Below, in pieces: positions 5,702-33,751 of a stretch of 34,230 nucleotides of DNA. The notes under the pieces are model-generated. The model searched no databases, was not told the origin of the DNA, and saw only the letters and a program-made list of their open reading frames with translations. The position numbers and the translations under genes are program-made. Each line of letters opens with the position of its first letter. Position 1 is the stretch's first letter. Source of the stretch: a virus (lineage: Duplodnaviria; Caudoviricetes); IMG/VR virus record IMGVR_UViG_3300033067_000719, positions 1 through 34,230 of that record; one strand, given 5' to 3'.

Positions 5702-6120
5702 TGTTGCATTTGTTTTTTAATGTGGTCGGGAATGTCGTGAGAGAAGTTGTGCCAAGATGAGCTAATGTGCGAGGTATAAGGATATTCTTCTTCATAGTCA
5801 ATATCTATAAGCCTTCCAAAATGAACCCCATGATTACCAGTATTATCCCAAAAATATCCCCAATTATTAACTTTGGGGTTGTTCCAATGCTCTGAAATTG
5901 GCGTGAATCCGCCTTTTTCGAGGGTGTATTCGGTGAGGGATAAAAGAGGATATTTATGAGTACTATAATTTACCCCGTCTATATTGTAAGTTGCGGTTTC
6001 ACCATCAAATTTGACACATATGCGGAAGTGTGCGTAGTCTTCATTATTTACTACTTCACCCCACCCATACCGAACATCGAATACCTTTGTGCCTACCGGT
6101 AATAATCTTTCTTCTTTCAT
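5698..6120 (-). CDS. Hypothetical protein, SH3/KOW-like beta-rich N-terminus
   Basis: VGTKVFDVRYGWGEVV...ICVKFD; ATGA overlaps. Confidence 0.75.
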   Translation of the reverse strand: MKEERLLPVGTKVFDVRYGWGEVVNNEDYAHFRICVKFDGETATYNIDGVNYSTHKYPLLSLTEYTLEKGGFTPISEHWNNPKVNNWGYFWDNTGNHGVHFGRLIDIDYEEEYPYTSHISSSWHNFSHDIPDHIKKQMQQ

Positions 6121-6947
6121 TGCGTTAACTCTGTTTTGCGTTTGTCTTTTGCTGCTACAAATTCTGCATTTGATTGCAAGTGCTTATACTTGCTCCATAC
6201 CGACTTTAAATCCTCGATATTGGCGGTGACTTCCATCTCGTTGACCGCTGCTGCGATTTCAGACACACCGCTATTGCACCAATCTGCAATTAGGGCCCCT
6301 GTTTCCTCTGTAATTAAAAAGGGGTTCTTTCCTTCAAACAAGTTTGTTCTATCCTTCGAAGAGATAGCAAAATGCGTGTCGCGGTCAATTGTTAAAGAAA
6401 CAGTCAATTCGTATTCCCATCCTTCGCGCTGTAAGTCCTTTAAGCCTACTTTTTTCACCTTCTTATCGTCACCCATAACCGTCTCCATTTTTGAGCGAGT
6501 GCATGTTATTACATGACAAGAAGAATTTAAAACCGCTCTAAGGAACCTATCATGCCGCGGTGTAGTCTGTGACCAGGCTGACCAAGTATTTCCTCGGAAT
6601 TTGGATTGCGCTAATAGCTCATTTTCTTCTAAAAGTGTTGTCCATTCGTGAGTTGAGGAGTCGATAATGATAACCTCAATCCCCGATTTTTCGCAAAGCT
6701 GAATAGCTTCGATGTATTTTTCGGGTGTGAAAGGTGGTAAAAGGTCTATCGTATTGAAATCCCCTAAATGCGAGTAGAGTGATGCTGACCCGTTCTCGGT
6801 GTCAATTACCGCTACTTTTTCCCAGTCGCCTACAAGACCTTTTGCCAATTTCAAAGCTGAATAAGTCTTGCCTGCACCGGATGGAGCTGATAAATTCAAG
6901 CGAAGTTTTACCGCCTTTCTGGTAGCTTTCTTTAGTTGTAGAGTCAT
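6117..6947 (-). CDS. Sak4-like AAA ATPase / single-strand annealing recombinase
   Basis: Walker A APSGAGKT, VAVIDTE, Walker B IIIDSSTHEW; close to ssb. Confidence 0.85.
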   Translation of the reverse strand: MTLQLKKATRKAVKLRLNLSAPSGAGKTYSALKLAKGLVGDWEKVAVIDTENGSASLYSHLGDFNTIDLLPPFTPEKYIEAIQLCEKSGIEVIIIDSSTHEWTTLLEENELLAQSKFRGNTWSAWSQTTPRHDRFLRAVLNSSCHVITCTRSKMETVMGDDKKVKKVGLKDLQREGWEYELTVSLTIDRDTHFAISSKDRTNLFEGKNPFLITEETGALIADWCNSGVSEIAAAVNEMEVTANIEDLKSVWSKYKHLQSNAEFVAAKDKRKTELTQ

Positions 6948-17325: not shown

Positions 17326-18680
17326 AATGGTTGGGTTTTGCAAAAGACGATAAACCCGCAATGCAGAAGAAAGAAAATATCATGCAGCTTGCATATAGTT
17401 TTGTCGGTGGACAAACCGTGGTTTGGCTGAACACGCAGCGCGATGTTTACATAAGTGACGGATACATGGCAGACAACATCGTGTTTGCCTTATCGAAATG
17501 GAAAGCGAATAAAATTAAAAATTGTCCGTTCGTGCTGTATCGCGTAAAATCCAAGCGTAAATACGCAAAGTACAAGGCGCTCATGACTAATCCGACAAAC
17601 GAGAGTTTTCAAAAAGCAATGCAGCTAAAATCGCAGGCAATGGATATTGTGGAAGATCACGCGTTACTCACCCTCCTCGACCAGCCCAACCCAGGTATGA
17701 CTGGTGCTGAATTTAAAGAAGCAGAAATTACCTACCGCGATATGGTGGGTTCTTCCTACATTCGCATTCATAAGGGGCTTGGCTCAGGCAAAGTAACCGA
17801 ACTAGAACTTATACCATCTCAAGAAGTTATGATTCGCGTGGGTGCAGACGGTTATCCGGCTTATCTATCGCTCACTCGTAATCCCGACATTAATATACCG
17901 TACGACGAAATCATACAGACGCGCCACTTTAACCCGAAATTTTCATGGCAGGGGGAACACTTGTACGGGATGAGCATACTAGAGTCTGCAAGCAAGCTAC
18001 TTGTAAAACATCGCGAATCCATCGACGCAGAAGCAGAAGCGTTCAAAAACAGGGGTGCAAGGGAATTGATTTTTCCTCAAGACGGGAATTTTGCAGATTA
18101 CGACGTTGAAACAATTAAAACTGTCAACCAACAACTTAACGACAAACTAACAGAAGGTGGGAACGCGCGGGTTGTGGCTAATGCCATACCGCTCGGTTCG
18201 ATTAAGATAGGTATGTCACCCGTCGATTTGAACATACTTGAGTCTAACATTGAACTCAAAAAGGACTTCTGCGCGATGTACGGAATTTCGCCGTTGATAT
18301 TCGATTGGTCTAACAATAGTACGTACAACAACCTTTTAGAAGCGCGTAAAATGTCGCTAATCGACGGCGTTATACCGTACCAAGAGGACTTAAAGGATAG
18401 TTTAAATAAAAAGTTAGTTCCGCTGTTTGGCTCGGATTTAGTATTGGATTGGGACTACCAAGCATATCCAGAGATGCAGTCGGATTTGAAAGAACAAACC
18501 GACCGTTTAAGTAAGTCGTTTTGGCTTACCGTGGATGAAAAACGCATGGAACAAGATTATCCTGCACTCAACACGCCTAATTCACAGATGCCGTTAGTAC
18601 CGTCCAACCTAACAAATCTCGACGACTTAGGGATGGATTCTCCTACATTAAATTTGCCAAACACGAATGCAGGATTATAA
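17310..18680 (+). CDS. Portal protein (HK97 type)
   Basis: LLDQPNPGMTGAEF, LYGMSIL, FKNRG, STYNN..EARK, WLTVDEKR. Confidence 0.92.
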   Translation: MASWLKWLGFAKDDKPAMQKKENIMQLAYSFVGGQTVVWLNTQRDVYISDGYMADNIVFALSKWKANKIKNCPFVLYRVKSKRKYAKYKALMTNPTNESFQKAMQLKSQAMDIVEDHALLTLLDQPNPGMTGAEFKEAEITYRDMVGSSYIRIHKGLGSGKVTELELIPSQEVMIRVGADGYPAYLSLTRNPDINIPYDEIIQTRHFNPKFSWQGEHLYGMSILESASKLLVKHRESIDAEAEAFKNRGARELIFPQDGNFADYDVETIKTVNQQLNDKLTEGGNARVVANAIPLGSIKIGMSPVDLNILESNIELKKDFCAMYGISPLIFDWSNNSTYNNLLEARKMSLIDGVIPYQEDLKDSLNKKLVPLFGSDLVLDWDYQAYPEMQSDLKEQTDRLSKSFWLTVDEKRMEQDYPALNTPNSQMPLVPSNLTNLDDLGMDSPTLNLPNTNAGL

Positions 18681-19419
18681 GCAAATAGAACGCATACGGC
18701 GGCGGCATGAGTTGCTATTCTATAGGGAGTTGTCAAAAATGTTTTTAGATGATATACGTAAACTCAAAGCCGCAATACGTCAAAACCCTGCCGAAGCGGT
18801 GGGGCTAATTGATACGCTGTTTAACGAATACCGCATATTAGAGATCGTGAGAATGAATTACGAACGGATTGGTTCAGTTGAAGCGGTTCGGGTGTATGAG
18901 ATGATACTTGACAAGTATGAGCAGAAAGCCGCGTTCCCGTCCGTCGGGTTCGCATCGGAAATAATTATGGCTATTATTCGCCGTATCGCAAGTAGACCCG
19001 AGATAGCAAGTAGGATAAAAAATGTGAGCGACAATTTGAAAACATCGGTACGTACTAAACTCCAGGAAGCGATGAAAACAACACTTTCCGCGCGTAGCAT
19101 CGCAGCACTGTTTACAGCGGACTTTGGACGTGAACGAGCATTACGAATAGTACGAACCGAAACTACAATCATTTTTAACGAAGCGAGCATAACGGGTGCG
19201 AAGTCCACGGGCGTACCACTAAAAAAACGGTGGTTAGCTGGTTCAGATGCGCGGACAAGGGATTCTCATCTCGAGATGAACAATAAACCTGCCATTCCCT
19301 TAGATAGTCGGTTTCAAGTAGGACAAAGCGAAATGATGCAACCTGGTGACGCGGCGGGGGGTGCAAAAGAGGTAGTAAATTGCAGATGTACGATGACTTA
19401 CGAGTTAGATAGAGTTTAA
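18667..19419 (+). CDS. MuF/SPP1 gp7-like minor head protein
   Basis: RALRIVRTET, KKRWL..DARTRDSH, PGD..EVVNCRCT. Confidence 0.9.
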   Translation: MQDYKQIERIRRRHELLFYRELSKMFLDDIRKLKAAIRQNPAEAVGLIDTLFNEYRILEIVRMNYERIGSVEAVRVYEMILDKYEQKAAFPSVGFASEIIMAIIRRIASRPEIASRIKNVSDNLKTSVRTKLQEAMKTTLSARSIAALFTADFGRERALRIVRTETTIIFNEASITGAKSTGVPLKKRWLAGSDARTRDSHLEMNNKPAIPLDSRFQVGQSEMMQPGDAAGGAKEVVNCRCTMTYELDRV

Positions 19420-19441: not shown

Positions 19442-19474
19442 AAAAAGAAAGAACCCGACAAAATCGGGTTCTTT
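19442..19474 (-). terminator. Intrinsic (probably bidirectional) terminator closing the antisense RNA cassette
   Basis: 11-bp perfect stem aaagaacccga/tcgggttcttt; the minus strand continues into CTTTTT. Confidence 0.8.
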
Positions 19475-19549
19475 GCATAAAACAATCTAACTCTATTCAC
19501 AAAAAACAAATCGGTAGGACTTACATGTACGAAGTACAATGCCTTTCTG

Positions 19550-19650
19550 TAGTCGGGACAGGAATCGAACCTGTAAGTTTTTCATTCTGAATACCGCGAC
19601 GATACGCTGAAAAACCTCGGATAGTGCGTCTACCATTCCGCCACCCGACT
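19550..19650 (-). ncRNA. tRNA-like RNA D (51-nt core, no anticodon arm)
   Basis: AGTCGGG/CCCGACT acceptor + A73, D arm GCG-GAATGGTAGA-CGC, T arm ACAGG-TTCGATT-CCTGT; core closed by AGGTTTTTCA/TGAAAAACTT. Confidence 0.8.
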
Positions 19651-19768
19651 ATGTACGGGTCTCTCCCCGTTTGTCACCTTTCGCTATTTTGCGCATCAAT
19701 TTGAGTTTACTTCCTAAAAGCTATCTCTCTTATCTATTACAGCTGCGTATACGGTTCTCACTGTCTCG

Positions 19769-19907
19769 TAATCGGGGCAGGACTTGAACCTGCATAAGAG
19801 TTGAGTCCAAATGGAATAACGCTACTTTCGTAACCTCTTGCATAGTCCATTTTGCAACATCCCTCTCACCTTTAGTTTAGTTGCGTCTACCATTCCGCCA
19901 CCCGACT
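19769..19907 (-). ncRNA. tRNA-like RNA C (89-nt core, no anticodon arm)
   Basis: AGTCGGG/CCCGATT acceptor + A73, identical D arm, T arm GCAGG-TTCAAGT-CCTGC. Confidence 0.8.
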
Positions 19908-19991
19908 ATATGTCCCCGTCTTTCCGGGGTGTCAACCACTTGCGAAGTCGTTCGTATACAACTATTCGCCAATCCTCTTATGGTCGATTTT

Positions 19992-20065
19992 GCGAGCGGC
20001 CTGGAATCGAACCAAGGGTTTACTGCCGTTTTCCGGCAATTGTTCTACCACTAAACTACCACTCG
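19992..20065 (-). ncRNA. tRNA-like RNA B (near-canonical size, aberrant anticodon arm)
   Basis: CGAGTGG/CCGCTCG acceptor, GTTT-AGTGGTA-GAAC D arm, CTTGG-TTCGATT-CCAGG T arm; central hairpin ATTGCCG-GAAAA-CGGCAGT lacks U33. Confidence 0.75.
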
Positions 20066-20157
20066 GGGCTTCATTTGATTTGCCCGGTCTCGCATCATTG
20101 CGAGGCGCTTCCCCGCCAGTCGGACACTGGGTTCCGAAGGCTCTATTATAAAAATTG

Positions 20158-20226
20158 TAGTCGGGACAGGGATCGAACCTGTGTAATGTGGCGCGCTGCA
20201 CTGCATAACCATTCCGCCACCCGACT
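20158..20226 (-). ncRNA. tRNA-like RNA A (20-nt core)
   Basis: AGTCGGG/CCCGACT acceptor + A73, GCG-GAATGGTTA-TGC D arm, ACAGG-TTCGATC-CCTGT T arm. Confidence 0.78.
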
Positions 20227-20234
20227 AATTTTTC

Positions 20235-20264
20235 AAAACAACTCCTCCCGAAACCGAGAGGAGT
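20235..20264 (-). terminator. Terminator/attenuator-like hairpin between the HTH-like gene and the RNA array
   Basis: ACTCCTCTCG-GTTT-CGGGAGGAGT (10 bp, G-U pair valid on the minus strand only) followed by TGTTTT. Confidence 0.6.
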
Positions 20265-20290: not shown

Positions 20291-20455
20291 TTACCTGCTA
20301 CGAAAAAAAACTACTTTCAAAAATTCATCCCGTGTAACGGGTGCATAAGCGGGGCGGCCTAACTTTTTTCTCACTTGATTCAACTTTCTCCAGCCACTTC
20401 GAACATCTGAATAATTCATTATCTCTGCAACCTCTTTCCCGCTTATTCTCTTCAT
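20291..20455 (-). CDS. Small basic HTH/excisionase-like protein (54 aa)
   Basis: MKRISGKEVAEIMNYSDVRSGWRKLNQVRKKLG..PVTRDEF; ATG 17 nt downstream of a TACCTTTG motif. Confidence 0.7.
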   Translation of the reverse strand: MKRISGKEVAEIMNYSDVRSGWRKLNQVRKKLGRPAYAPVTRDEFLKVVFFRSR

Positions 20456-20522: not shown

Positions 20523-21149
20523 ATGTACAAAGCAGGCACATTCGCATTTAAGGACTACGATTCGCAAAAACGAGTTGTTACCGGTATGTTGTCGGCGTTT
20601 GACAATATCGACTCCGATAACGATATAATCCGCAAAGGCAGCTATGAAAGTACTATTAGACAACGAGGGCCAGAAGGAACAAAGCAAATTAAATACCTAC
20701 TCGACCATGACACCAAAAAAGCCGTCGGTGTGTTTAACGTGCTTAAAGAAACAGACGAAGGGCTTTATTACGAAGCAACAATCGGAACCCATAGCTTAGG
20801 CAAGGATTATGCCGAAATGGTAGAGTCGGGAATCATCACAGAACATAGTGTTGCTATTAACGTCACCAAATCCACGATGCTACCGGGGAACATTCGCGAA
20901 ATTAAAGAGGTGACTCTTTTCGAAGGTTCGGGCTTACAATTCTTAGGAGCCAATTCAAATACGCCAATTTTGGGGCTTAAATCTGAAACGGACGTATTAA
21001 AGGAAATCGCAAAGTTAGAGCAGGCTTTAAAGTCAGGCAATTTCACAGACGAAACATTTGTAAATGTAATCATACCGCGCTTAGACGCGCTTAAAAATAG
21101 TATTACACCAGAAGCAGTACATTTTAAAAACTTTTTAAATACTTTATAA
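20523..21149 (+). CDS. HK97-type prohead protease
   Basis: GMLSAFDNIDSDNDIIRKGSY, LLDHD, ETDEGLY, LFEGS..GAN..T. Confidence 0.92.
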   Translation: MYKAGTFAFKDYDSQKRVVTGMLSAFDNIDSDNDIIRKGSYESTIRQRGPEGTKQIKYLLDHDTKKAVGVFNVLKETDEGLYYEATIGTHSLGKDYAEMVESGIITEHSVAINVTKSTMLPGNIREIKEVTLFEGSGLQFLGANSNTPILGLKSETDVLKEIAKLEQALKSGNFTDETFVNVIIPRLDALKNSITPEAVHFKNFLNTL

Positions 21150-21151
21150 AA

Positions 21152-22378
21152 ATGACAGAAGAATTAAAACCCTTGATTGAATCTAAATTCAACGAATTAA
21201 AAGCAGAAATTGCAAAAGCTGAAGCAAAAGGTATTTCGGCTGAGGAACTAGCAAAAAGCGAACTTGGTAACTTAGCGACACAATTTGCTGAGTTAAAAAG
21301 TCGTGTAGATGGTCACGCAGGCAGTTTGGACAAAGTAGGCGAAGCACTTAAAAACGGTCTTCGTATCGAGGAGAAGCAAAAAACGTTTAGACAAATCCTT
21401 ACTAAGTCTTTGAATGAGCAAAAGAACAATTTGGATTCTTTTTTAGCTGGGAATCAAAAAGCTACGACCAGTATCAATATCGACTTGAAAGCAGTTGCTG
21501 ACATGTCACAAGCAAACATGGCAGGGGGGATTGGTTCATTTGATAGAACGTATCAAAACGAAATTATCTTCAATCCGTTCCAACGCCTTCACATCCGTCA
21601 GTTGATTCCTGGTACGGCGTTAACTACTGAGTCGCTTGTTTACCCTAAATTAACGACAAAAGAAGGAACACCTGCAATTCAAACAGAGGGTGCGCGTAAA
21701 GCACAAGTTGATTATGACTTCGCAGTAGTTACAGAATCACCTGTAACAATCGCTTCATTTGCACGTGTGACAAAACAAATGCTTCGCGCAATGCCACAGC
21801 TTTCGGCGTTCATACAAACGCAAATGATCGAGGACTTGTTGATTATCGAGGATGCCGAATTGCTTAACGGCCCGGGCGGTTCAAACCGTTTGAATGGTAT
21901 CCGTACACAAGCGTCTGCGTACACTCCTACTGTCGGAACAATCGCAGCGAGCGCAGGAGCAGATGTGTACAATCGCTTAATTAACGCAATTGCGCAATTA
22001 AAGCAATTAAATTACCAACCAAACGGTATCTTGTTAAATACGCTTGATTTCTCGGAGTTGCTACAAACAAAAACAAGTGCGGGTGAATACACTTATCCAT
22101 TCTTGACTGTTAACGCAGCAACAAACAGCATTAACATTTACGGCGTTCCGGTTATTGAGTCAACTTCAGCATCTTTACCAGTTGGTAACTTTGTTGTAGG
22201 GGATTGGAACCGCGCGAACTTCCTAACAAGAGAATCGTTAACAGTAGATATTAGCTACGACGATGCAACTAACTTCACAGACAATAAGGTTACTTTGCGT
22301 GTTGAGGAGTCTGTAGGCTTAGCGGTGTATCACCCTCAGGCATTCTTGAAAGGTACAACTGTAGCACCTGCACCATGA
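21152..22378 (+). CDS. Major capsid protein (HK97 fold, delta domain)
   Basis: Coiled-coil N-terminus, EGARKAQ, LLNGPG, IYGVPVIES, VVGDW, NFTDNKVTLRVEE. Confidence 0.95.
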   Translation: MTEELKPLIESKFNELKAEIAKAEAKGISAEELAKSELGNLATQFAELKSRVDGHAGSLDKVGEALKNGLRIEEKQKTFRQILTKSLNEQKNNLDSFLAGNQKATTSINIDLKAVADMSQANMAGGIGSFDRTYQNEIIFNPFQRLHIRQLIPGTALTTESLVYPKLTTKEGTPAIQTEGARKAQVDYDFAVVTESPVTIASFARVTKQMLRAMPQLSAFIQTQMIEDLLIIEDAELLNGPGGSNRLNGIRTQASAYTPTVGTIAASAGADVYNRLINAIAQLKQLNYQPNGILLNTLDFSELLQTKTSAGEYTYPFLTVNAATNSINIYGVPVIESTSASLPVGNFVVGDWNRANFLTRESLTVDISYDDATNFTDNKVTLRVEESVGLAVYHPQAFLKGTTVAPAP

Positions 22379-25269: not shown

Positions 25270-27647
25270 TGGCACAAGAAGTATTACAAGTAAAACTCAC
25301 ACTCGACGGCAAGGAGTATGAGTTGGGAATGAAACAAGCCGAACAGCGAACACGTTCGTTTATGGATGGGTTCGAAGCCGTTGGCGAGCGATTAACACTA
25401 TTCGCTACAACCACGCTTGCATTAGTAGCTACACAAGGACTCAAAACAGCAATGAGTTTAGAAGAGTCGTTAAACCGTGTAGAAGTGTCTTTTGGTAAAT
25501 CTGCTGAAGGTATAAAAGATTTTGCGAAAACTACAGTTGATTCTTTTGGTATCTCTCAAGGCGCGGCACTTAGTATGGCGGGAACTTTTGGGGATATGGC
25601 GACTTCAATGGGTATTAGCCAAACGGAAGCCGCAAAAATGGCAACGACTATTGTTGGGCTTGCAGGGGATTTGGCGTCTTTTAAGGATATTCCTATTTCT
25701 GAAGCTGTTACAGCATTAACGTCAATCTTTACAGGTGAAACCGAATCGCTTAAAATGCTCGGTGTAGTAATGACAGAAGTAAATTTAAAAGCGTTTGCAC
25801 TCCAAAAAGGCATTACGAAAAAATACGAAGCGATGACAGAAGCTGAACGCGTTTTACTTCGTTATAACTTTGTTTTAGAGAAAACACGTAATGCACAAGG
25901 CGACTATGCAAGAACGTCTGATAGTGCATCAAACGCAACCAGAACGATGCAGGAGCGGTTTAAGGAGGTAACTGGGGATTTGATGAACCAAGTGCTACCA
26001 ATCTACACGCAGCTAGTTTTAAAGGTGAACGACATCTTAAAATCGGTATCAGAACTTTCGCCCGAAATGAAACAACTCATTGTGATTATCGGCGGGATTG
26101 TCGGAATAGCGGGGCCAGTAATGTTAGCGATTACGGGAATAAGTGCAGCAATAGGCACACTTGGCGCGGCGGCATTACCAATCGCGGGAATTGTGATGGG
26201 TATCACGACGGCACTTGCATTACTTTTCGAGCATAAAGCAAAGATAGATTCTGTCGCCGCTGCAACAATGAGCATGGAAGATGCTACGCGAAAAGCCAAC
26301 TTACAAATACAAACGCAAACAGACAAAGTACAAAGTTTATTAGAAGTACTTAGGAACGAAAAATCTACACAAGAAGAAGTAAATAAGGCAAAAGCTGAAT
26401 TAATAAGTATAAGTCCTAAATTCCAATCAGCCTTAGAAGGTTCTAAAATAGATTTTGAAAAACTTGCAGACGCAACAAGCGACTATGTAACCGAACTGCA
26501 AAAAGTTGCGCGCGCTGAGGTGCTACTTGAGCAGCAACGCAAAAACATTGCATTGCAAGAACAAGAAAGGTTAAATCCAGGTGCTTCTTTGTCGCTTTTG
26601 CAAAAAGGAGAAATGTTCTTAAAGAGCGGTTTTGGGCTGGGTGTCTTGGGTAATTACGCTTCTAATGTAGCAGTAGCATCAAACGACATTGTAAAAAAGC
26701 TACAAGAAACAAATAAAAAGATTGGCAAGGAGTTACAAGCGATTGGTAAGACAATAACAGGCACAACGACAACGGACACGGGGACAGGTGGCACGGGAAT
26801 AGAAGGCATCGGCGGTGGCACACAAGGCGACGGCGTAAACAAAGACGCGGGTACGATTCAGTTTGGGCAAAAGTTCCTAAAAGGCATACAAAAGATGAAA
26901 GACGACGTTGAGATAGCTTATTTTGACGCGTTAAAATTCGTACAAAACTTCAAAGACTCGAAGCTGCAAGGCCTTACGCTTGAGGGTTTCTTTGTTCGTC
27001 AACTACTTAGCGGGGGAACTGAGGTGCAATTTGTCGGGGATGGTTTACCAGCTACATTTCAAAAAGTCGAGGACAATATCATTAAAGGGATGGAAGGAAG
27101 GATTCAAAACATTCAGAATGGTATAAGGAACTTTTCACATAAAACAATTTCTGCTTACCGCCAAAGCATTTACGACCTTACAGAAGCGATGGAAAAGGAA
27201 CTATCTAAATCCGTCGAACAGGTATTTGAACTTGGCTTGGAAAGCGCGGCATTAAGTATAGAGGGTATATTTACGCAAATCTTCGGCGGTGAGTTTGACT
27301 GGAAACAAGCAGCGGCGGGAATGTTGAATGGGCTTGCAAGTATTATGCAAGAACTTGGAAAACACATGATTACGCTTGGTATGGCCAAAGAAGCGTTCAA
27401 AGTTGCATTGAAAGATATGTTCGGCGGCGGCGTTGGCTTGATCGTGGCTGGGGGTGCATTGATAGCGGGGGCCGCAGCAATACGCGGTTATTCAAACTCT
27501 ATATCGCAACGTTCAACAGCGTCTTCAGCGGGTTCAGGAGGTAGTAACTTTACCGCTCCTACATTTAACGTACAAGGTAGCTTAGTCGCGAAGGGAACAG
27601 ATTTAGTCGCAGTAATCAACAATACTAAAAATTTATACGGTGCATGA
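25269..27647 (+). CDS. Tape measure protein
   Basis: 792 aa, Ala/Gly-rich helical; LAGDLASF, GETESLKMLG, NAQGDYART; hydrophobic segments. Confidence 0.93.
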   Translation: MAQEVLQVKLTLDGKEYELGMKQAEQRTRSFMDGFEAVGERLTLFATTTLALVATQGLKTAMSLEESLNRVEVSFGKSAEGIKDFAKTTVDSFGISQGAALSMAGTFGDMATSMGISQTEAAKMATTIVGLAGDLASFKDIPISEAVTALTSIFTGETESLKMLGVVMTEVNLKAFALQKGITKKYEAMTEAERVLLRYNFVLEKTRNAQGDYARTSDSASNATRTMQERFKEVTGDLMNQVLPIYTQLVLKVNDILKSVSELSPEMKQLIVIIGGIVGIAGPVMLAITGISAAIGTLGAAALPIAGIVMGITTALALLFEHKAKIDSVAAATMSMEDATRKANLQIQTQTDKVQSLLEVLRNEKSTQEEVNKAKAELISISPKFQSALEGSKIDFEKLADATSDYVTELQKVARAEVLLEQQRKNIALQEQERLNPGASLSLLQKGEMFLKSGFGLGVLGNYASNVAVASNDIVKKLQETNKKIGKELQAIGKTITGTTTTDTGTGGTGIEGIGGGTQGDGVNKDAGTIQFGQKFLKGIQKMKDDVEIAYFDALKFVQNFKDSKLQGLTLEGFFVRQLLSGGTEVQFVGDGLPATFQKVEDNIIKGMEGRIQNIQNGIRNFSHKTISAYRQSIYDLTEAMEKELSKSVEQVFELGLESAALSIEGIFTQIFGGEFDWKQAAAGMLNGLASIMQELGKHMITLGMAKEAFKVALKDMFGGGVGLIVAGGALIAGAAAIRGYSNSISQRSTASSAGSGGSNFTAPTFNVQGSLVAKGTDLVAVINNTKNLYGA

Positions 27648-30600
27648 AAGGATTAAAGTATTTCGCAGAGTATTCCGATTTCGACGGGCAAGAATACAAA
27701 ATAGAAATTTGGGTAGAAGGTTTTACAGGCGTTGCAACCGAGGTCACAGCAGGCGGTAATCCAGTAACGATAGACAAGAACAAGGATGTTTCTGAAACCT
27801 ATTTGGGCGGTATTGTGCCAACCTTTTATCGCTTCGAGTTTGTAACGGACACGAACTTTTCAACGCGCGTTTTTGATTCCGAAAAATACGGCGATGTAGT
27901 GATACAGCATTACAAAGGCACTAATCTACAGTTTAACGCAATCGTTCAGCCGTTTGTTGGCATGGAACAAGATTTACCGGACGGGTTGTCGGTTTTTACG
28001 TTATCTGGTGAATGTGGATTGGAATACCTTAAAAACAAGAAGTTTGCAAATCCTACTGACACGAATGTAAGACTAATAGACTTGATTCAGGAAGCGGTTG
28101 ATTTAATTCCTTACGTCGAGAAGTTCGGATTTAAAGTGTTTGATAATACTGCGCTTTATAACGGCGTATCGCGTATTAACTCAAACCAAAACTTCTTAGA
28201 AGCTAGGATAAATAGAAAGACGTTCACGGATTATACGTATTACGATGTACTTTTAAATTTAGTTGCGAATAGAAACGAAATCTATTTTGACAATGGGTAT
28301 TGGTGGGTGCGGAACTTATCGGAACTTTCCGAACTATACACGACTAGCAACACAGGAACACTTGTAACCTACGACGAAAATGGCGACTTCCTTACATCTA
28401 TACCTAATTACCGACCTAGTAAGTCGATTATTAGACAAGCAGGCGGGTCGTTCGGGAAGTTGTTTAGTCAAAAGAACGTAGTTGTAAAACGGATTGAACC
28501 AGAAAGGATAAACTATGTTTTGAACGGTTCGTTTGATCAAGGTTCAACTAACTTTGTACCAAACAACTGGACTGTGGGTAGCGAAGCATTTAGTAGCGTA
28601 TTAGGCGCGGATTTCTTTCGTTTCGTCGAGTCTGTTTATACGCCTACGTTAACGAGCGACAACGCCTATATCCAATCGACTGCGATAACGTGGGAGCCGT
28701 TCGGGGCGTTATTTGCATCACCCGTTCGCGAGCCGCAAAAGCTAACTTTTCGTGCAAACGTCGAAATCGGTACGGGAATAAGTGCGTGTCGTTTTCAAAT
28801 TATTGCCACGAGCGGAAGTACAACCGTGTACCTTACAACGGACTTAGCTTGGACAACTACGCCAACAATTATACAAAAAAAGCCAGATGCAAGCGGGCAA
28901 ATAGAGTTCGATATACCACAGCCACCGAACGAACTATTTACTACAATAGGAAACTTTGACCAGCCTATTATTTTTAACGTATCTATGCGTTTATTTCGCT
29001 CAGAGCGAGCGTTTGAAACGACGGTTGGTACTGCAACGTATTCCACTCAATACAACGAAGTATCCTTTTTTAAAGACTCTTTATACACGCAATTCTTTGA
29101 TGAGTACATAGGCAAATCGGATTACAGACAAGACGAAAACAGCGATAGAGAAAACCCGCTTGAGCTAGAAACAATAATAGCAAGCCAAAATTCATTTCCG
29201 TACCGCCACGGGAGTTTATTTGACGCGGAGGGTGTAGCTGCAAACGGATTCGGTTCAGTAAATTCGGTTGCAGGTAGTATATATAATATCTATCTTGCAA
29301 CGTCCTATCTTAACGTAACAAGCAAGCGTTTAACCTACTATCAAGGGTCGTCTTTCGAGCATTTCGACTTTTCGGACGTACTACTAATCGACGGCATACA
29401 TTTTAGAGTAAGCAACTATTCACACGACATTAGGTCGAAAACCGTACAATTCAAAGCGGTTGAACTAAACTATTCGAGCGGATTTGTATTAGACACGAAT
29501 AAGATTAAAAGCGATGTCGAGAAAGCAATAACGGTCGTTAATAACATCGGTTTAATCCCTCAAGACTATAACTTCACATCTTCAACAAACTTTGACGGAC
29601 GAACATCTTTTGGTATGCGTCCCGACGTTCGTCACGTATCGGCGAGTTTGACGGAGATGTTTTTGCGGGCTGAACCGAGTGCAGCGGATAGTGTTTCGAT
29701 TAAACCAGGAGCGACTGGAATAGAACTTTTAACACCTCCCCCACTTGCTACGACACCCGAAACACTAGCAACCCGCGAATGGACTGCGAATGGATTAGAA
29801 ACAAAATATCTGCAACTAGATACGACGTACACGAACGGGAACTTTCCTGGTCGTTTGAGTTGGGATGCAGATCACGATTTAATGTTCTTAGGACTCGAAA
29901 ACGACTACACGGCAAAAGTCCCTCAAGATAGCGTATGGTCGTGCATCGCAGGCGAAGCGATTACGAAAGGTCAGCTAGTCTATGCGAGTGGAACGGTCGG
30001 CAGTAGCGGTAAAATACAAGCAAGTCGTTTCATTGCAAACGGTACAATCCCTTCACGCTTCGTAATCGGTGTAGCTACTAGAACTGTAGCGCAAGGTGAA
30101 ACGTTTCACGCATTAAGAGCGGGTGTTCTACGCGGGCTGAATACATTAGATTACACACAAGGGCAGGATTTATGGGCTTCGTCGACGGTGGCGGGCGGAT
30201 TTCAAACGACAGCTCCAGCTGCTCCAAACCCGAAAATGTCCGTTGCGTTTGTCATCACTTCTCACGCAAATAATGGCGAACTGGCGGTGCGTATTATTCC
30301 GAGTTTAGGAATTTCGCTTCTCGACGACGTGCAAGTAACATCTCCCGCTACAAATCAACTTTTGCGGTACAATAATAACCGTTGGGAGAACTTCACGCAT
30401 GATTTTGCGAGCGTACCGACGGCAGGGACGGTGAATAGATTGGCGAAGTTCACGGCGGGCAGGACACTAGCTAGCTCAAATATGATTGAGGTGGGTAGCA
30501 ATGTCGGGATTGGTGCGCAGTCGCCTGCTGCATTGTTACACGTAGCTAGTACTTACACGGCCCCTACATCAGGGATTTCGTCTGATACGCGGGTTCTTAT

Positions 30601-33600
30601 TACTAATAATGCTGCTGCAAATGCAAATACAAACTTAACTTTACTTTCACGCTCGAGCGGGTTTAATCGGATTTTTTTTGGTAGTCAATTGGTTGAAAAT
30701 GCAGGCTATATAGAATCTTTTTTAGGCGACTTTAGAGTTGGCACTAGCGCGGATGGGATTGTCGCAGGCGTGGAGCGTATGCGTATAACAGCAGGGGGGA
30801 ACTTATTACTTGGAACTACAACAAATACAGGTGAAAGACTAATCGTATCGGGTACAGCAAGAATAACAAGTAATACTTCTATACTAGGAACACTAACTGT
30901 ACCGACAATCGGAAACAGCGCGGGCGTTTCGGCTCAAAACACGTGGACTTTTGCAAGTAATGTTAACGTACCTCTAACGCCGTCCGCTTCGACTCATGCA
31001 ACGTCAAAAAGCTATGTAGACAACTTAGTTGCGACGGGTATCAAAGAAGGTATTCCAGTTCGGTCTATATCCTTAACAAACATAACCTTATCAGGAACAC
31101 AAACTGTTTCGGGTGTGGCTTTAGTCGCAGGAGATAGGGTCTTAGTTGCGGGGCAAACGACAGCAAGTCAAAACGGCGTGTACGTGGTAGCTTCGGGTGC
31201 ATGGACACGCGCGACAGATAGCGATACAGATGCAGAACTTCGCGGCTATCAGTACCTTATTACGGCAGGTACATTTATAAACGCGAAATACAGAAACACG
31301 AACGAAATGGCTATCGTGGTCGGCGTTACCGCAATAACCTACGTTGTTTCACAAGGCGCGGAAACCGACCCTATCTTTTCAGCTTCACCAGCGGCAGGTA
31401 TTACACAGCAGTTTATTAATAATTGGAATGCGAACTACGCGGTCTGGGGTGAATTAACTCCCGAAAGTATCTTTGCAAATCGAACAACGTCAAATTTACC
31501 CGAAGGAACAAACTTATACTTTACCGACGCCCGCGCACGGGCTGCAATTTCAGCGGGTACAGGAATAAGTTATAATAGTAGTACGGGTGTGATTACTAGC
31601 TTAATTACACAATATACCGACTCACTTGCGCGCGCTGCTTTATCTTTCGCATCGGGTTCGGCGGGGTACAACTCGACGACAGGAGTAATAAGCATACCGA
31701 CAACGTCGAATCACATAACGGAGGGTACGAATTTGTTTTATACGGACACGAGAAGTCGCGCGGCTTTGTCTTTTGTTGCGGGTACTGGTGCGTATAATAG
31801 CGGTACGGGGGTGATTACAATTCCTACGCAAACTTCGCATCTAACGAACAATTCTGGTTTTATTACCTCTGCTGCTTTATCGGGTTATGTGCCTACCACG
31901 CGAACGATAAACGGTTTAGACTTATCTGTAAATCGTGTCTTGACGACTAGCAATATAGGCGAGGGTACAAACCTTTATTTCACCGACGCGCGTAGTAGGT
32001 CTGCACTTTCTTTTATAGCTGGTTCGGGTGCTTACAACTCGACAACGGGGGTGATAACCATTCCGACTAATACAAACCACGTAGCAGAAGGAAGTAATCT
32101 ATACTATACCGACGCGCGGAGTAGAAGTGCTATCTCGGTCGGCGCGGGCTTGTCGTATAACAATTCTACTGGAGTTATTAACCTAGTAAATAATATTTCG
32201 GGCGTTCTAACAGCAGGCCGTATTCCTGTAGCGACGGCGGCGGGTGTGTTGGGGAATAGCGTTTTATTTGAAAGTTCTGGGCGTGTTGGATTAGGTACGA
32301 CAACGCCTGCATCTTTATTACATGTATCGAGCAGTTATACAACACCAGCGCTAATTAGCGGCAATACAATAGCAATATTTAGTAACAATAATGTTGCTAA
32401 CGGTTCTGCAAGTATATCTATCCTTTCGCGCTCGAGTGGCACACAGCGGATAAACTTCGGGAATCAACTTGTCGAGTCGGCGGCTTTTGTTTCCTCACTT
32501 TTGGGTGATTTACGTTTTGGTGTTGGGGCTGGTGATGTTAATGCTACAGAGCAGATGAGGATAACAAGTGCGGGGGAATTGTTACTTGGGTTTACCGTAT
32601 CGACAAACGAACGCTTACAAGTGAACGGTTCTGCAAAGATTACAAGCATGGCCGCGGGTGCATCGACAGACGAGATTGTAACTGTTAACGCATCGGGCGT
32701 ACTTAGAAAGATAGCTTATACGACCTTTGTTCCTTCAACAAGGACAATAAACGGTTTGGATTTGAGCGCAAATAGAACCTTGACGACAACGAACATAGGA
32801 GAAGGGACAAACCTTTACTTCACAAATGCTCGTGCAAGAAGCGCTATATCCTTAACGGTCGGTACTACCTTAACCACTCCTACTTACAACGCATCAACGG
32901 GCGTACTTAATTTACCTGCTACATTATTACAAGATAGACAATTCACCGATGTAGCAGTGGGGTTAAGACAACTCCGTTCAATCGACTACTACGAAAATCG
33001 GATGGATTTCGGGTTTGATAAGGTGCTTGACGTTCCTTATTTGTATTATGATAAGAACGGAACGCGGTACGTTAATTACATGAACGGTGACGGGGTTTTT
33101 GTTCACGTCGATTCTACTGGTAATGAAAGGGAGTATGTAAGAATAGGCGACATTGGTACAACCGTTCCGAACTTGCAACAAGTTAGCGAAGTAGGCAAGT
33201 CCAGTACAATAAAACTACAATGGAACGGCGTTGACTATGCAACGGTAAACGATATTGTAGCGGCGACCGTACCGACCTTACAGCAGGTATCGCAGCAAGG
33301 TAGTAACTCGACAATACGCTTATCCCACAACGGACAAAACTATGCTACACTTGCAGACTTGCAAACAATCACAGTACCGACCCCGACTCTAAGTAGTGTT
33401 TTGGCATCAGGGAATAACGCGTTTGGAACAGCAATTCAGTTTGGAAACGCGGGCTTTATACAAAACGTGACAAATGTTCTGTACGGTGACGGAATATTCT
33501 TGGGTACGACATCTCAGACATGCCATCTTCGATTACAAGGGACAACGTTCGAAATTTCGGGGTTACAAGGCGCGCGGGTTGATAGCGTGTCTGGTGGTGT

Positions 33601-33751
33601 CGTGGGTAAATTATTCTTGCAGTCAGGGGGTAATAACCCAATCACCCTTAACGGTATCGACTATGCTTTTGGGCAAACACCGACCTTAGTAGCGGGTCAA
33701 AAATATTCACTTTTATGGGACGGTTCAAAATTTATAATCACTAACGCTTAA
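27644..33751 (+). CDS. Very large tail-tip/fibre protein with repeated modules
   Basis: 2035 aa directly after the tape measure gene; VGIG-type, EGTNLYFTDARARSA, TRTINGLDLS and VPTLQQVS repeats. Confidence 0.85.
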   Translation: MKGLKYFAEYSDFDGQEYKIEIWVEGFTGVATEVTAGGNPVTIDKNKDVSETYLGGIVPTFYRFEFVTDTNFSTRVFDSEKYGDVVIQHYKGTNLQFNAIVQPFVGMEQDLPDGLSVFTLSGECGLEYLKNKKFANPTDTNVRLIDLIQEAVDLIPYVEKFGFKVFDNTALYNGVSRINSNQNFLEARINRKTFTDYTYYDVLLNLVANRNEIYFDNGYWWVRNLSELSELYTTSNTGTLVTYDENGDFLTSIPNYRPSKSIIRQAGGSFGKLFSQKNVVVKRIEPERINYVLNGSFDQGSTNFVPNNWTVGSEAFSSVLGADFFRFVESVYTPTLTSDNAYIQSTAITWEPFGALFASPVREPQKLTFRANVEIGTGISACRFQIIATSGSTTVYLTTDLAWTTTPTIIQKKPDASGQIEFDIPQPPNELFTTIGNFDQPIIFNVSMRLFRSERAFETTVGTATYSTQYNEVSFFKDSLYTQFFDEYIGKSDYRQDENSDRENPLELETIIASQNSFPYRHGSLFDAEGVAANGFGSVNSVAGSIYNIYLATSYLNVTSKRLTYYQGSSFEHFDFSDVLLIDGIHFRVSNYSHDIRSKTVQFKAVELNYSSGFVLDTNKIKSDVEKAITVVNNIGLIPQDYNFTSSTNFDGRTSFGMRPDVRHVSASLTEMFLRAEPSAADSVSIKPGATGIELLTPPPLATTPETLATREWTANGLETKYLQLDTTYTNGNFPGRLSWDADHDLMFLGLENDYTAKVPQDSVWSCIAGEAITKGQLVYASGTVGSSGKIQASRFIANGTIPSRFVIGVATRTVAQGETFHALRAGVLRGLNTLDYTQGQDLWASSTVAGGFQTTAPAAPNPKMSVAFVITSHANNGELAVRIIPSLGISLLDDVQVTSPATNQLLRYNNNRWENFTHDFASVPTAGTVNRLAKFTAGRTLASSNMIEVGSNVGIGAQSPAALLHVASTYTAPTSGISSDTRVLITNNAAANANTNLTLLSRSSGFNRIFFGSQLVENAGYIESFLGDFRVGTSADGIVAGVERMRITAGGNLLLGTTTNTGERLIVSGTARITSNTSILGTLTVPTIGNSAGVSAQNTWTFASNVNVPLTPSASTHATSKSYVDNLVATGIKEGIPVRSISLTNITLSGTQTVSGVALVAGDRVLVAGQTTASQNGVYVVASGAWTRATDSDTDAELRGYQYLITAGTFINAKYRNTNEMAIVVGVTAITYVVSQGAETDPIFSASPAAGITQQFINNWNANYAVWGELTPESIFANRTTSNLPEGTNLYFTDARARAAISAGTGISYNSSTGVITSLITQYTDSLARAALSFASGSAGYNSTTGVISIPTTSNHITEGTNLFYTDTRSRAALSFVAGTGAYNSGTGVITIPTQTSHLTNNSGFITSAALSGYVPTTRTINGLDLSVNRVLTTSNIGEGTNLYFTDARSRSALSFIAGSGAYNSTTGVITIPTNTNHVAEGSNLYYTDARSRSAISVGAGLSYNNSTGVINLVNNISGVLTAGRIPVATAAGVLGNSVLFESSGRVGLGTTTPASLLHVSSSYTTPALISGNTIAIFSNNNVANGSASISILSRSSGTQRINFGNQLVESAAFVSSLLGDLRFGVGAGDVNATEQMRITSAGELLLGFTVSTNERLQVNGSAKITSMAAGASTDEIVTVNASGVLRKIAYTTFVPSTRTINGLDLSANRTLTTTNIGEGTNLYFTNARARSAISLTVGTTLTTPTYNASTGVLNLPATLLQDRQFTDVAVGLRQLRSIDYYENRMDFGFDKVLDVPYLYYDKNGTRYVNYMNGDGVFVHVDSTGNEREYVRIGDIGTTVPNLQQVSEVGKSSTIKLQWNGVDYATVNDIVAATVPTLQQVSQQGSNSTIRLSHNGQNYATLADLQTITVPTPTLSSVLASGNNAFGTAIQFGNAGFIQNVTNVLYGDGIFLGTTSQTCHLRLQGTTFEISGLQGARVDSVSGGVVGKLFLQSGGNNPITLNGIDYAFGQTPTLVAGQKYSLLWDGSKFIITNA

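What the first reader, a model, noticed from the sequence alone, without database searches (positions are those of the whole stretch)
19548..20226. Array of anticodon-less tRNA scaffolds carrying different cores
Seen: three minus-strand RNAs (20226-20158, 19907-19769, 19650-19550) share the acceptor strand AGUCGGG, a GCGGAAUGGU D arm, a canonical UUCRANY T loop and A73. The segment that should hold the anticodon and variable arms (about 23 nt in a class I tRNA) is unrelated in each copy and is 20, 89 and 51 nt long. The scaffold varies in ways that keep pairing: T stem ACAGG/CCUGU vs GCAGG/CCUGC, acceptor G-C vs G-U, D stem G-C vs G-U. None has a 5-bp stem with a 7-nt U33 loop, and none encodes CCA. 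Inference: constant tRNA elbows with variable inserts look like a natural version of the engineered tRNA-scaffold strategy. The RNAs could present cargo, act as decoys for tRNA-targeting defences (PrrC/RloC, PARIS AriB, retron effectors), or mark RNase P/3'-processing cut sites in a polycistronic RNA. I do not recognise this arrangement as a described system.
Basis: partly seen in the sequence, partly recalled or inferred. Interest (0 to 1): 0.9.

Follow-up and report, generated by a model that had tools for sequence, protein, structure and literature searches.

The report
Swappable RNA cores in tRNA shells
This phage carries three tRNA-shaped genes that have no codon-reading arm and hold three unrelated inserts; the same tRNA-like ends recur in hundreds of phage sequences around hundreds of different inserts, some exchanged at one genomic slot, so the ends likely act as a reusable carrier for small folded RNAs that would bind still-unknown host targets.

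Summary
Observation confirmed. Three minus-strand elements keep a tRNA acceptor stem, D arm, T arm and A73 around unrelated cores of 20, 89 and 51 nt, with no anticodon arm. They belong to a large phage-borne family (about 2,600 viral stretches by the tool's estimate; 33 hits in 185,579 prokaryote genomes). I extracted 342 distinct elements; 294 cores fell into 242 clusters. Scaffold stems stay paired, C74 is as conserved as in neighbouring real tRNAs (97%), and 192 of 294 keep the LeuRS identity set. Homologous cores show compensatory changes. Cores are exchanged at fixed slots: this site is empty or differently filled in relatives, and two alleles identical over 325 upstream bases carry unrelated cores. 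No anticodon-stem closure (intron), antisense target or partner protein was found. Best reading: a tRNA-Leu-derived shell, likely matured as a tRNA, carrying exchangeable structured payloads (0.45); a plain decoy and processing punctuation remain open. Expression is not shown. Closest known: T5 RNA1/RNA2, annotated as tRNA-like stable RNAs of unknown function. This scan noted the same kind of element before on other phage DNA.

The parts
20158..20226 (-). Shell element 1: acceptor, D arm, 20-nt core, T arm, A73; C48 and altered D loop; core looks like a remodelled tRNA-Cys-type anticodon arm
   Evidence: a contig of run X8 carries a GCA anticodon arm behind the same 5' 28 nt (table 5c)
19769..19907 (-). 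Shell element 2: Leu-type D arm, A15-U48, A73; 89-nt core (11-nt linker, then a long irregular hairpin abutting the T arm)
   Evidence: no further copy of its core motif in viral contigs
19550..19650 (-). Shell element 3: Leu-type D arm, A15-U48, A73; 51-nt core (invariant linker, two-part hairpin) shared with other phages
   Evidence: 87 of 87 cells paired in three versions, 3 of 8 pairs of the core stem changed on both sides
19992..20065 (-). tRNA-shaped gene called Phe(AAA) by ARAGORN; extended anticodon stem, no U33 loop; likely a further non-decoding tRNA-like RNA with another acceptor
19914..19935 (-). UGACA + 5-bp stem with GAAAGA loop, 6 nt before element 2; recurring leader of phage tRNAs and tRNA-like RNAs
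   Evidence: (26 of 342 elements)
19655..19676 (-). Second copy of the same leader hairpin (GAGAGA loop), 4 nt before element 3
20066..20155 (-). Spacer with short hairpins between element 1 and the Phe(AAA)-like gene
   Evidence: z -1.35, not distinguished from shuffles
20241..20264 (-). 10-bp hairpin 14 nt upstream of element 1 (terminator of the small ORF or 5' leader of the RNA operon); kept in the empty-site relative
   Evidence: L189
20271..20278 (-). TAnnTTTG match (Bacteroidota -7 promoter motif, recalled); a second at 20480-20473; weak evidence, 41 such matches lie in the window
20291..20455 (-). 54-aa ORF upstream of the RNA cluster, conserved in relatives, no PHROG match
19448..19474 (-). 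12-bp terminator-like hairpin closing the cassette towards the convergent head-morphogenesis gene
18667..19419 (+). Head morphogenesis gene, left boundary of the slot
   Evidence: phrog_2468, E 2e-34
20523..21149 (+). ORF before the major head protein gene (prohead-protease-like by sequence motif, recalled; not scanned), right boundary of the slot
   Evidence: major head protein 21152-22378

Best explanation
These genes keep the ends of a leucine-type tRNA around unrelated, exchangeable inserts; they are likely transcribed and trimmed like tRNAs into stable non-decoding RNAs, and the folded insert is likely the working part, predicted to act as bait or ligand for host proteins during infection. 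Shown: the shell (acceptor, D arm, T arm, A73, C74) is conserved and paired; the anticodon arm is absent; cores are under selection for their own structure; cores are replaced between the D arm and the T arm at fixed genomic slots. Inferred: host RNase P, 3' trimming and CCA addition mature the RNA; LeuRS can charge most copies because it does not read the anticodon; the roughly 25-nt constant ends also serve as crossover points, so phage recombinases (this window encodes a Sak4-like protein) shuffle cores between co-infecting phages and expand or contract arrays. Least supported step: that the targets are host defence or translation-surveillance proteins; this rests on the accessory, fast-turnover pattern, not on any identified partner.
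For: Family size and constancy: about 2,600 viral stretches estimated; 342 distinct elements, mean pairwise identity 86% over the first 16 nt and 90% over the last 24 nt, while 294 cores form 242 clusters, 203 of them singletons. No decoding arm: 5 of 262 strict AGUC(A/G)GG elements have a canonical anticodon arm (0.9 expected from shuffles). tRNA-type maturation marks: C74 in 333 of 342 against 294 of 302 canonical tRNAs of the same loci; U-1 78% vs 65%. LeuRS set A73 + A15-U48 + G18G19..A20a in 192 of 294; PMC9976931 (passages) names these as E. coli leucine determinants and says variants lacking the anticodon arm and variable arm stay active. Cores matter: 124 of 160 substituted pairs stay paired against 50 (random letters) and 90 (transition-biased, maximum 106 of 500), 54 by changes on both sides; unpaired positions vary no faster than paired ones (0.11 vs 0.13) (pairs counted in both directions). 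Exchange: this slot is empty in L189 and in contigs of runs X2, X8, X20, and holds one element with a fourth core in L003/L188; L466 and L469 are identical over 325 bases up to the end of the D arm, differ wholly in the core and resume identity at the T arm; the core of element 3 sits on an A5-U68 shell elsewhere but on the local G5-C68 shell here; cores also occur on other acceptor stems and once with no tRNA shell. Sak4-like gene at 6117-6947 (E 3e-8).
Against: No target or partner is identified: the commonest neighbouring protein cluster is in only 10 loci and the representatives scanned are ordinary phage genes or unknowns. Cores are only modestly more stable than shuffles (mean z -0.84; 13% below -2, against 12% for flanks), and most are singletons whose structure cannot be tested. 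Some cores are too short to be a payload (16-25 nt), including window element 1. The scans selected on the flank sequences, so flank constancy is partly built in (a sample drawn by the leader hairpin still gave the AGUCAGG acceptor in 6 of 13 long tRNA-like RNAs). The extreme sequence constancy of the acceptor is not required by a passive carrier and fits a decoy or gene conversion as well. The T stem predicts only slightly weaker EF-Tu binding (-9.8 vs -10.2 host and -10.3 phage tRNA-Leu), inside the range of ordinary tRNAs. Covariation counts are not phylogenetically independent.
Confidence: 0.45

Rival explanations
1. Elbow decoy: the constant shell is the working part. It soaks up host enzymes that attack or monitor the tRNA body or 3' end (anticodon nucleases docking on the elbow, CCA-end toxins, or LeuRS itself); the core only replaces the cleavable anticodon arm and must merely fold without disturbing the elbow.
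For: Acceptor and T stem are conserved in sequence far beyond pairing needs; very short cores exist; up to 9 copies per 8-kb locus suggest dosage; D and anticodon arms of tRNA-Lys(UUU) and, in one run contig, tRNA-Cys(GCA) are grafted into the shell; hairpin insertions in the D loop leave the G18G19 contact intact.
Against: Does not explain why cores reach 131 nt (median 52), why single-stranded core positions are conserved within families, or why one phage keeps several unrelated cores.
Confidence: 0.25
2. Processing punctuation and cassette boundary: shells are RNase P / 3'-processing sites that cut and stabilise polycistronic transcripts and bound exchangeable passenger genes; the mature RNA is a by-product.
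For: 38 of 109 distinct spacers between consecutive elements hold a same-strand ORF of 40 aa or more (no chance control run); L466/L469 have an ORF between two shells; 30 of 52 long loci have no canonical tRNA nearby.
Against: In this window the cassette holds only RNAs between two hairpins, antisense to the head genes, and relatives lack it altogether; 47 of 109 spacers are under 150 nt; processing enzymes need neither a fixed acceptor sequence nor structured, conserved cores (established knowledge).
Confidence: 0.15
3. Neutral or selfish tRNA-derived repeat: a decayed phage tRNA-Leu(UAA) spreads by recombination and traps nearby structured sequence without benefit.
For: Patchy presence and empty alleles; canonical phage tRNA-Leu(UAA) with a GGUCGGG acceptor is an obvious ancestor; repeats homogenise by recombination.
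Against: Pairing is kept in 328-342 of 342 elements at every acceptor and T-stem pair (partly imposed by the extraction), C74 and U-1 match functional tRNAs, and cores covary; the same layout arose on other acceptors in T5, SPP1, a Karamvirus and a Bacteroides phage.
Confidence: 0.08
4. Intron-bearing tRNA precursors: the core is excised to leave a decoding tRNA, as proposed for oversized tRNAs of Lak phages.
For: Devoto et al. (10.1101/356790, passages) read oversized phage tRNAs as intron-containing and saw alleles with and without the insert.
Against: An anticodon stem closing around the insert occurs in 29 of 159 long cores (32 expected from shuffles), with U33 and R37 in 3 (2.7 expected), and in none of the three window elements; cores are far too short for group I introns and match none in Rfam; some are shorter than an anticodon arm.
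Confidence: 0.04
5. Antisense guides: core loops pair with phage or host RNAs, as P1 c4 or P4 CI RNA do (recalled).
For: Single-stranded core positions are conserved within families.
Against: No excess of exact matches to a Flavobacterium-genus rRNA operon (sense 22 vs 18.5, antisense 16 vs 15.4 of 242) or of the three window cores to the window; no core-core complementarity. Host mRNAs were not tested because the host is unknown.
Confidence: 0.03

Closest known systems
Phage T5 RNA1 and RNA2 (GenBank AY543070, 30501-30644 and 32959-33083, annotated 'tRNA-like stable RNA with unknown functions')
   Same: Acceptor-like stem, D arm (Leu-type in RNA1), enlarged multi-hairpin centre instead of an anticodon arm, 5-bp T arm, no encoded CCA at the end of the stem.
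   Different: No sequence match to the window; single copies with different acceptors, whereas this family has one near-fixed shell, many copies per genome and hundreds of exchangeable cores. The T5 RNAs are annotated as stable RNAs; these are not shown to be expressed.
Phage T4 species 1 RNA (RNA C, rnaC)
   Same: Small stable RNA of a phage tRNA cluster with a T arm preceded by a long hairpin; role unknown.
   Different: No canonical D arm and only a weak acceptor-like stem in the predicted fold.
Bacterial and phage tRNA-Leu (Rfam RF00005)
   Same: D arm, A15-U48, G18G19, A20a, A73; phage tRNA-Leu(UAA) with a GGUCGGG acceptor is the likely ancestor.
   Different: No anticodon arm; A1-U72; A51-U63 in 89% of elements against 22% of phage tRNA-Leu.
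Oversized 'intron-containing' tRNAs of Lak megaphages (Devoto et al., 10.1101/356790)
   Same: Phage tRNA bodies with inserts, present in some alleles and absent in others.
   Different: There the anticodon could be restored by removing the insert; here no anticodon stem closes around the core. Their Table S6 could not be seen.
Allo-tRNAs and polycistrons of irregular tRNAs (Mukai et al., PMC5389517)
   Same: Clusters of irregular tRNAs, some charged but not used in translation.
   Different: Those have 8/4 or 9/3 acceptor branches and anticodon arms; these are 7/5 and lack the arm.
Non-proteinogenic tRNA-Gly of Staphylococcus aureus (PMC7826273)
   Same: A49-U65 and A51-U63 in the T stem, calculated -9.6 to -9.7 kcal/mol, as in the modal shell (-9.7).
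   Different: Those keep an anticodon arm and serve known Fem transferases; for leucine the shift from the class mean is only about 0.5 kcal/mol.

Membership tests
Decoding tRNA (RF00005) | 7-bp acceptor stem, D arm, 5-bp T arm with canonical T loop | tested here: met
Decoding tRNA (RF00005) | 5-bp anticodon stem with 7-nt loop, U33 and purine 37 | tested here: not met
   none of the three window elements; 5 of 262 strict family members
Decoding tRNA (RF00005) | 3' end compatible with CCA maturation | tested here: met
   C74 in all three and in 333 of 342; CCA is unencoded in 87% of canonical tRNAs of the same loci too
LeuRS substrate | A73, A15-U48, G18G19, A20a (E. coli determinants per PMC9976931) | tested here: met
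   elements 2 and 3 and 192 of 294 family members; element 1 has A73 but C48
LeuRS substrate | Leucylation by the host enzyme | not testable with these tools
   needs a charging assay
T5 RNA1/RNA2-type tRNA-like phage RNA | tRNA ends around an enlarged centre without an anticodon arm | tested here: met
T5 RNA1/RNA2-type tRNA-like phage RNA | Sequence homology to the T5 RNAs | tested here: not met
   no T5 record among the 19 matches of the region in 50,697 phage records
T5 RNA1/RNA2-type tRNA-like phage RNA | Accumulates as a stable RNA in infected cells | not testable with these tools
   no RNA holder listed; only contigs could be laid
tmRNA | G3-U70 pair, stemless D loop, reading frame with pseudoknots | tested here: not met
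   U3-A70 in 342 of 342 (imposed by the extraction pattern; true of the three window elements), 3-bp D stem, no RF00023 match in the window
YrlA-type Y RNA | Match to RF02553 | tested here: not met
   none in the window; one 28.5-bit match against a cut-off of 69 among 20 loci
YrlA-type Y RNA | Neighbouring Ro60/TROVE gene | tested here: inconclusive
   none among 35 representatives of the commonest neighbour clusters scanned with PHROGs; rarer neighbours not scanned
Intron-containing tRNA | Anticodon stem closes around the insert, leaving U33 and R37 | tested here: not met
   29 of 159 vs 32 shuffled; strict 3 vs 2.7; 0 of 3 in the window
Allo-tRNA | 8/4 or 9/3 acceptor branch | tested here: not met
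   7/5 branch against PMC5389517

The most novel reading that the evidence does not exclude
Freshwater Bacteroidota phages run a natural RNA display library: one leucine-chargeable tRNA shell is reused as a universal carrier and recombination cassette, capturing structured RNA modules (including pieces of other tRNAs and free-standing hairpins) and trading them between phages, with each core an aptamer-like inhibitor of a different host defence or translation-control protein. T5 RNA1/RNA2 and the SPP1 element would be the long-unexplained laboratory examples.
Probability: 0.25. Interest if true: 0.92.

Novelty: new variant of a known kind. Interest (0 to 1): 0.72.

Why it matters
Phage tRNA clusters have held unexplained tRNA-like stable RNAs for decades (T5 RNA1/RNA2, T4 RNA C). 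This family supplies hundreds of natural variants that separate what must stay (a tRNA-Leu elbow with maturation marks) from what is exchanged (the core), which turns that old question into concrete swaps and point mutants, testable in cultured phages that carry the same layout (T5, SPP1, BS-TP2, ZX13). If the cores are the active part, this is an RNA counterpart of the accessory anti-defence protein repertoire of phages and a natural version of the engineered tRNA scaffold. It also matters for annotation: ARAGORN misses 127 of 179 such elements and gives the rest scattered anticodons, which can distort phage tRNA inventories.

Tried and rejected
Expression: no RNA holder listed; two runs guessed to be RNA were contigs only, one flagged as probably DNA, and they also cover protein-coding parts, so they say nothing on transcription. 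Rfam: no dedicated family in the window or in 20 loci; only tRNA, one group I intron, one tmRNA and a sub-threshold YrlA match. Cultured phages: no record of 50,697 covers an AGUCAGG-type element. Chromosomal gene: 33 stretches among 185,579 species, 16 in Bacteroidota MAG contigs, 3 unrelated matches, the rest in MAG contigs of other or unnamed groups; read as phage DNA in bins. Partner protein: none recurring. rRNA-derived or antisense cores: at shuffle level. Recurring modules in cores: GNRA loops, loop-E and kink-turn words not clearly enriched; a second T-loop word in 9 of 242 (1.7 expected) and UGGU in 72 (36.5 expected) against mononucleotide shuffles only. Intron reading rejected. EF-Tu avoidance: effect small, not used as support. 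Promoter motif upstream of elements: 32 vs 20 and 20 of 300, weak; sigma-70 scan at chance level. Metagenome scan for further alleles of this slot: 0; homologues of the element 2 core: 0. Integration site or target-site duplication: the empty allele has 12 other bases, not a clean pre-insertion site. Strict scan of SPP1 missed its element because the T loop deviates; a looser scan found it. Literature: 10 searches found no description of this family; 5 of them returned nothing at all because several terms were required together, and the library lacks most subscription journals and the original T4/T5 papers. Six supplementary files of Fremin et al. (PMC10690425) lacked the shell motifs, but three files were not searched.

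Full report
Setting. The window is a whole 34,230-base virus record: a tailed phage with a primase, a Sak4-like recombinase, terminase, head morphogenesis, major head and tape measure genes. The finding lies in a 1.1-kb gap between the head morphogenesis gene (18667-19419) and the ORF before the major head gene (20523-21149), on the opposite strand. The gap holds a 54-aa ORF, a hairpin, four tRNA-shaped genes and a terminator-like hairpin. A Bacteroidota host is inferred from the bins in which relatives of the elements occur (16 of 33 genome hits) and, weakly, from TAnnTTTG motifs (recalled consensus).

Observation. The three elements are as described. The 19-nt 5' flank occurs three times exactly and never in 100 shuffles. 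Each element has a 7-bp acceptor, U8-G9, a 3-bp D stem, a T arm and A73-C74, around cores of 20, 89 and 51 nt. ARAGORN calls none of them; Rfam gives only the generic tRNA model on element 3. Cores 2 and 3 fold as a short linker and a long hairpin that abuts the T arm. Element 1 differs (C48, other D loop); one contig of run X8 carries a tRNA-Cys anticodon arm behind the same first 28 bases, so it looks like a remodelled Cys arm; this rests on that one contig.

A large phage family. The exact 5' flank found 15 viral loci, 13 of which carry the same 3' end around 10 distinct cores; two were unrelated coding matches. Among 185,579 prokaryote species only 33 stretches match, nearly all in metagenome bins. 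From the loci held at that point I extracted 342 distinct elements, 294 with a parsable D stem; about 11 of them are canonical tRNAs caught by the loose pattern. Cores run from 16 to 131 nt (median 52) and form 242 clusters, 203 singletons, while the first 16 and last 24 bases are 86% and 90% identical between cluster representatives. Of 262 elements with the strict acceptor, 5 have a canonical anticodon arm. Caveat: the scans selected on flank sequence. A sample drawn by the upstream leader hairpin still gave this acceptor in 6 of 13 long tRNA-like RNAs and near variants in 2 more, alongside shells with other acceptors; that pattern was itself derived from family flanks.

The shell is kept as a tRNA body. 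All acceptor and T-stem pairs hold in 328-342 of 342 elements, with A5-U68 / G5-C68 / G5-U68 and A49-U65 / G49-U65 / G49-C65 exchanges. C74 is present in 97% of elements and 97% of 302 canonical tRNAs from the same loci; U-1 in 78% and 65%. A73, A15-U48 and G18G19..A20a occur together in 192 of 294. Giege and Eriani (PMC9976931, passages) give these as the E. coli leucine determinants and state that variants without anticodon arm and variable arm remain chargeable; so charging of elements 2 and 3 is plausible but untested. Canonical phage tRNA-Leu(UAA) with a GGUCGGG acceptor occurs in the same loci and is the likely ancestor. With the T-stem increments of Schrader and Uhlenbeck (PMC3239215, tables) the family averages -9.8 kcal/mol against -10.2 for 11 host and -10.3 for 53 phage tRNA-Leu: a small shift, within the ordinary range.

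The cores are selected and exchanged. Folding one core alone and asking how its homologue treats the confident pairs, 124 of 160 substituted pairs stay paired (random letters 50; transition-biased 90, maximum 106 of 500), 54 through changes on both sides; unpaired positions change no faster than paired ones (108 directed comparisons, so each pair counts twice, and no tree correction). For the core of element 3, three versions keep 87 of 87 cells paired, with 3 of 8 pairs of the outer stem changed on both sides and an invariant linker. Against this, cores are only modestly more stable than shuffles. Exchange is seen directly. At the window's slot, L003/L188 (88-90% identical flanks) has a single element with a fourth core, L189 and contigs of runs X2, X8 and X20 have none, and other contigs skip or replace single elements at the repeats. 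L466 and L469 are identical for 325 bases up to C25, unrelated in the core, and nearly identical again from the T arm. The core of element 3 sits on A5-U68 shells in other phages but on the G5-C68 shell shared by all three window copies. Cores also occur on other acceptor stems, the D and anticodon arms of tRNA-Lys(UUU) occur inside the shell, and one core occurs with no tRNA shell in a tRNA-cluster spacer.

What was not found. No recurring protein partner (largest neighbour cluster 10 loci; 35 representatives scanned); 30 of 52 long loci have no canonical tRNA within about 4 kb. No excess complementarity or identity to an rRNA operon or to the window. No anticodon stem closing around the cores. 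No usable expression data.

Mechanism. I commit to: tRNA-Leu-derived shell, matured by host tRNA enzymes (inferred), carrying a structured core that is the variable working part (selection shown, role inferred), with the constant ends doubling as crossover points (exchange shown, enzyme inferred), most likely as bait for host proteins (guess from the accessory, fast-turnover pattern); 0.45. An elbow decoy with tolerated filler (0.25) explains the fixed acceptor and the very short cores better; punctuation of transcripts and passenger genes (0.15) fits the 38 of 109 spacers with an ORF but not this window. These readings can hold together.

Comparison with what is known. T5 RNA1 and RNA2 are annotated as tRNA-like stable RNAs of unknown function and have the same layout; T4 RNA C is a looser analogue whose role is stated to be unknown (PMC3014915 and PMC9697503, passages). 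Devoto et al. (10.1101/356790, passages; supplements closed) read oversized Lak phage tRNAs as intron-bearing. Mukai et al. (PMC5389517, passages), Krahn et al. (PMC7609411, passages), Fremin et al. (PMC10690425, passages and 6 of 9 supplements) and two reviews (PMC13191261, PMC7824862, passages) showed no description of a fixed shell with exchangeable cores, nor did 10 searches, whose reach is limited. PMC7826273 was seen as one passage. Earlier notes of this scan describe the same kind of element in other phages; I saw them after the analyses above, and they are not independent support.

Verdict. Real, ordinary in kind but unexplained, and new in scale and behaviour: a new variant of the T5-type tRNA-like phage RNAs, with a near-fixed leucine shell and hundreds of exchangeable, structurally selected cores. 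Interest 0.72.

Noticed in passing
window 19935-19914 and 19676-19655 (-); L341-L460: A UGACA + short covarying stem with a GAAAGA loop, about 490 viral stretches for one exact form, lies a few bases 5' of tRNAs, shell elements and other RNAs; no Rfam match. Possibly a processing or antitermination signal.
   Followed up: partly
L346, L353, L354, L380, L386, L391, L397, L409, L437 and others, directly after the leader hairpin: A second family with constant ends and variable cores that is not tRNA-shaped: a closing stem ACUAUCAA...UUGAUAGU around 60-200 nt of unrelated structured RNA.
   Followed up: partly
window 20065-19992 (-): The gene called tRNA-Phe(AAA) has a 7-bp anticodon-like stem with a 5-nt loop and no U33; relatives in runs X1 and X2 vary in that loop.
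   Followed up: partly
L127, L132, L164 (second element), L165: Shell variants with a hairpin inserted in the D loop before G18G19, or a second T-loop inside the D arm or core.
   Followed up: no
L016:2505-2640 (Bacteroides phage BS-TP2); L187 about 308-432 (Enterobacter phage ZX13); L478 6647-6755 (SPP1): Unannotated anticodon-less tRNA-like genes in cultured phages, usable as laboratory models.
   Followed up: partly
L028, L050, L105 against L079, L201: D and anticodon arms of tRNA-Lys(UUU) inside the family's acceptor and T arm: chimeric tRNAs that might still decode.
   Followed up: partly
L034:58-642: A group I intron match abutting a tmRNA match next to three shell elements in a viral contig.
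   Followed up: no
L345: The leader hairpin is part of a 78-nt tandem repeat of at least three copies in a 322-kb viral contig.
   Followed up: no
window 27644-33751 (+): A 2035-aa tail-region protein with long internal repeats follows the tape measure gene.
   Followed up: no
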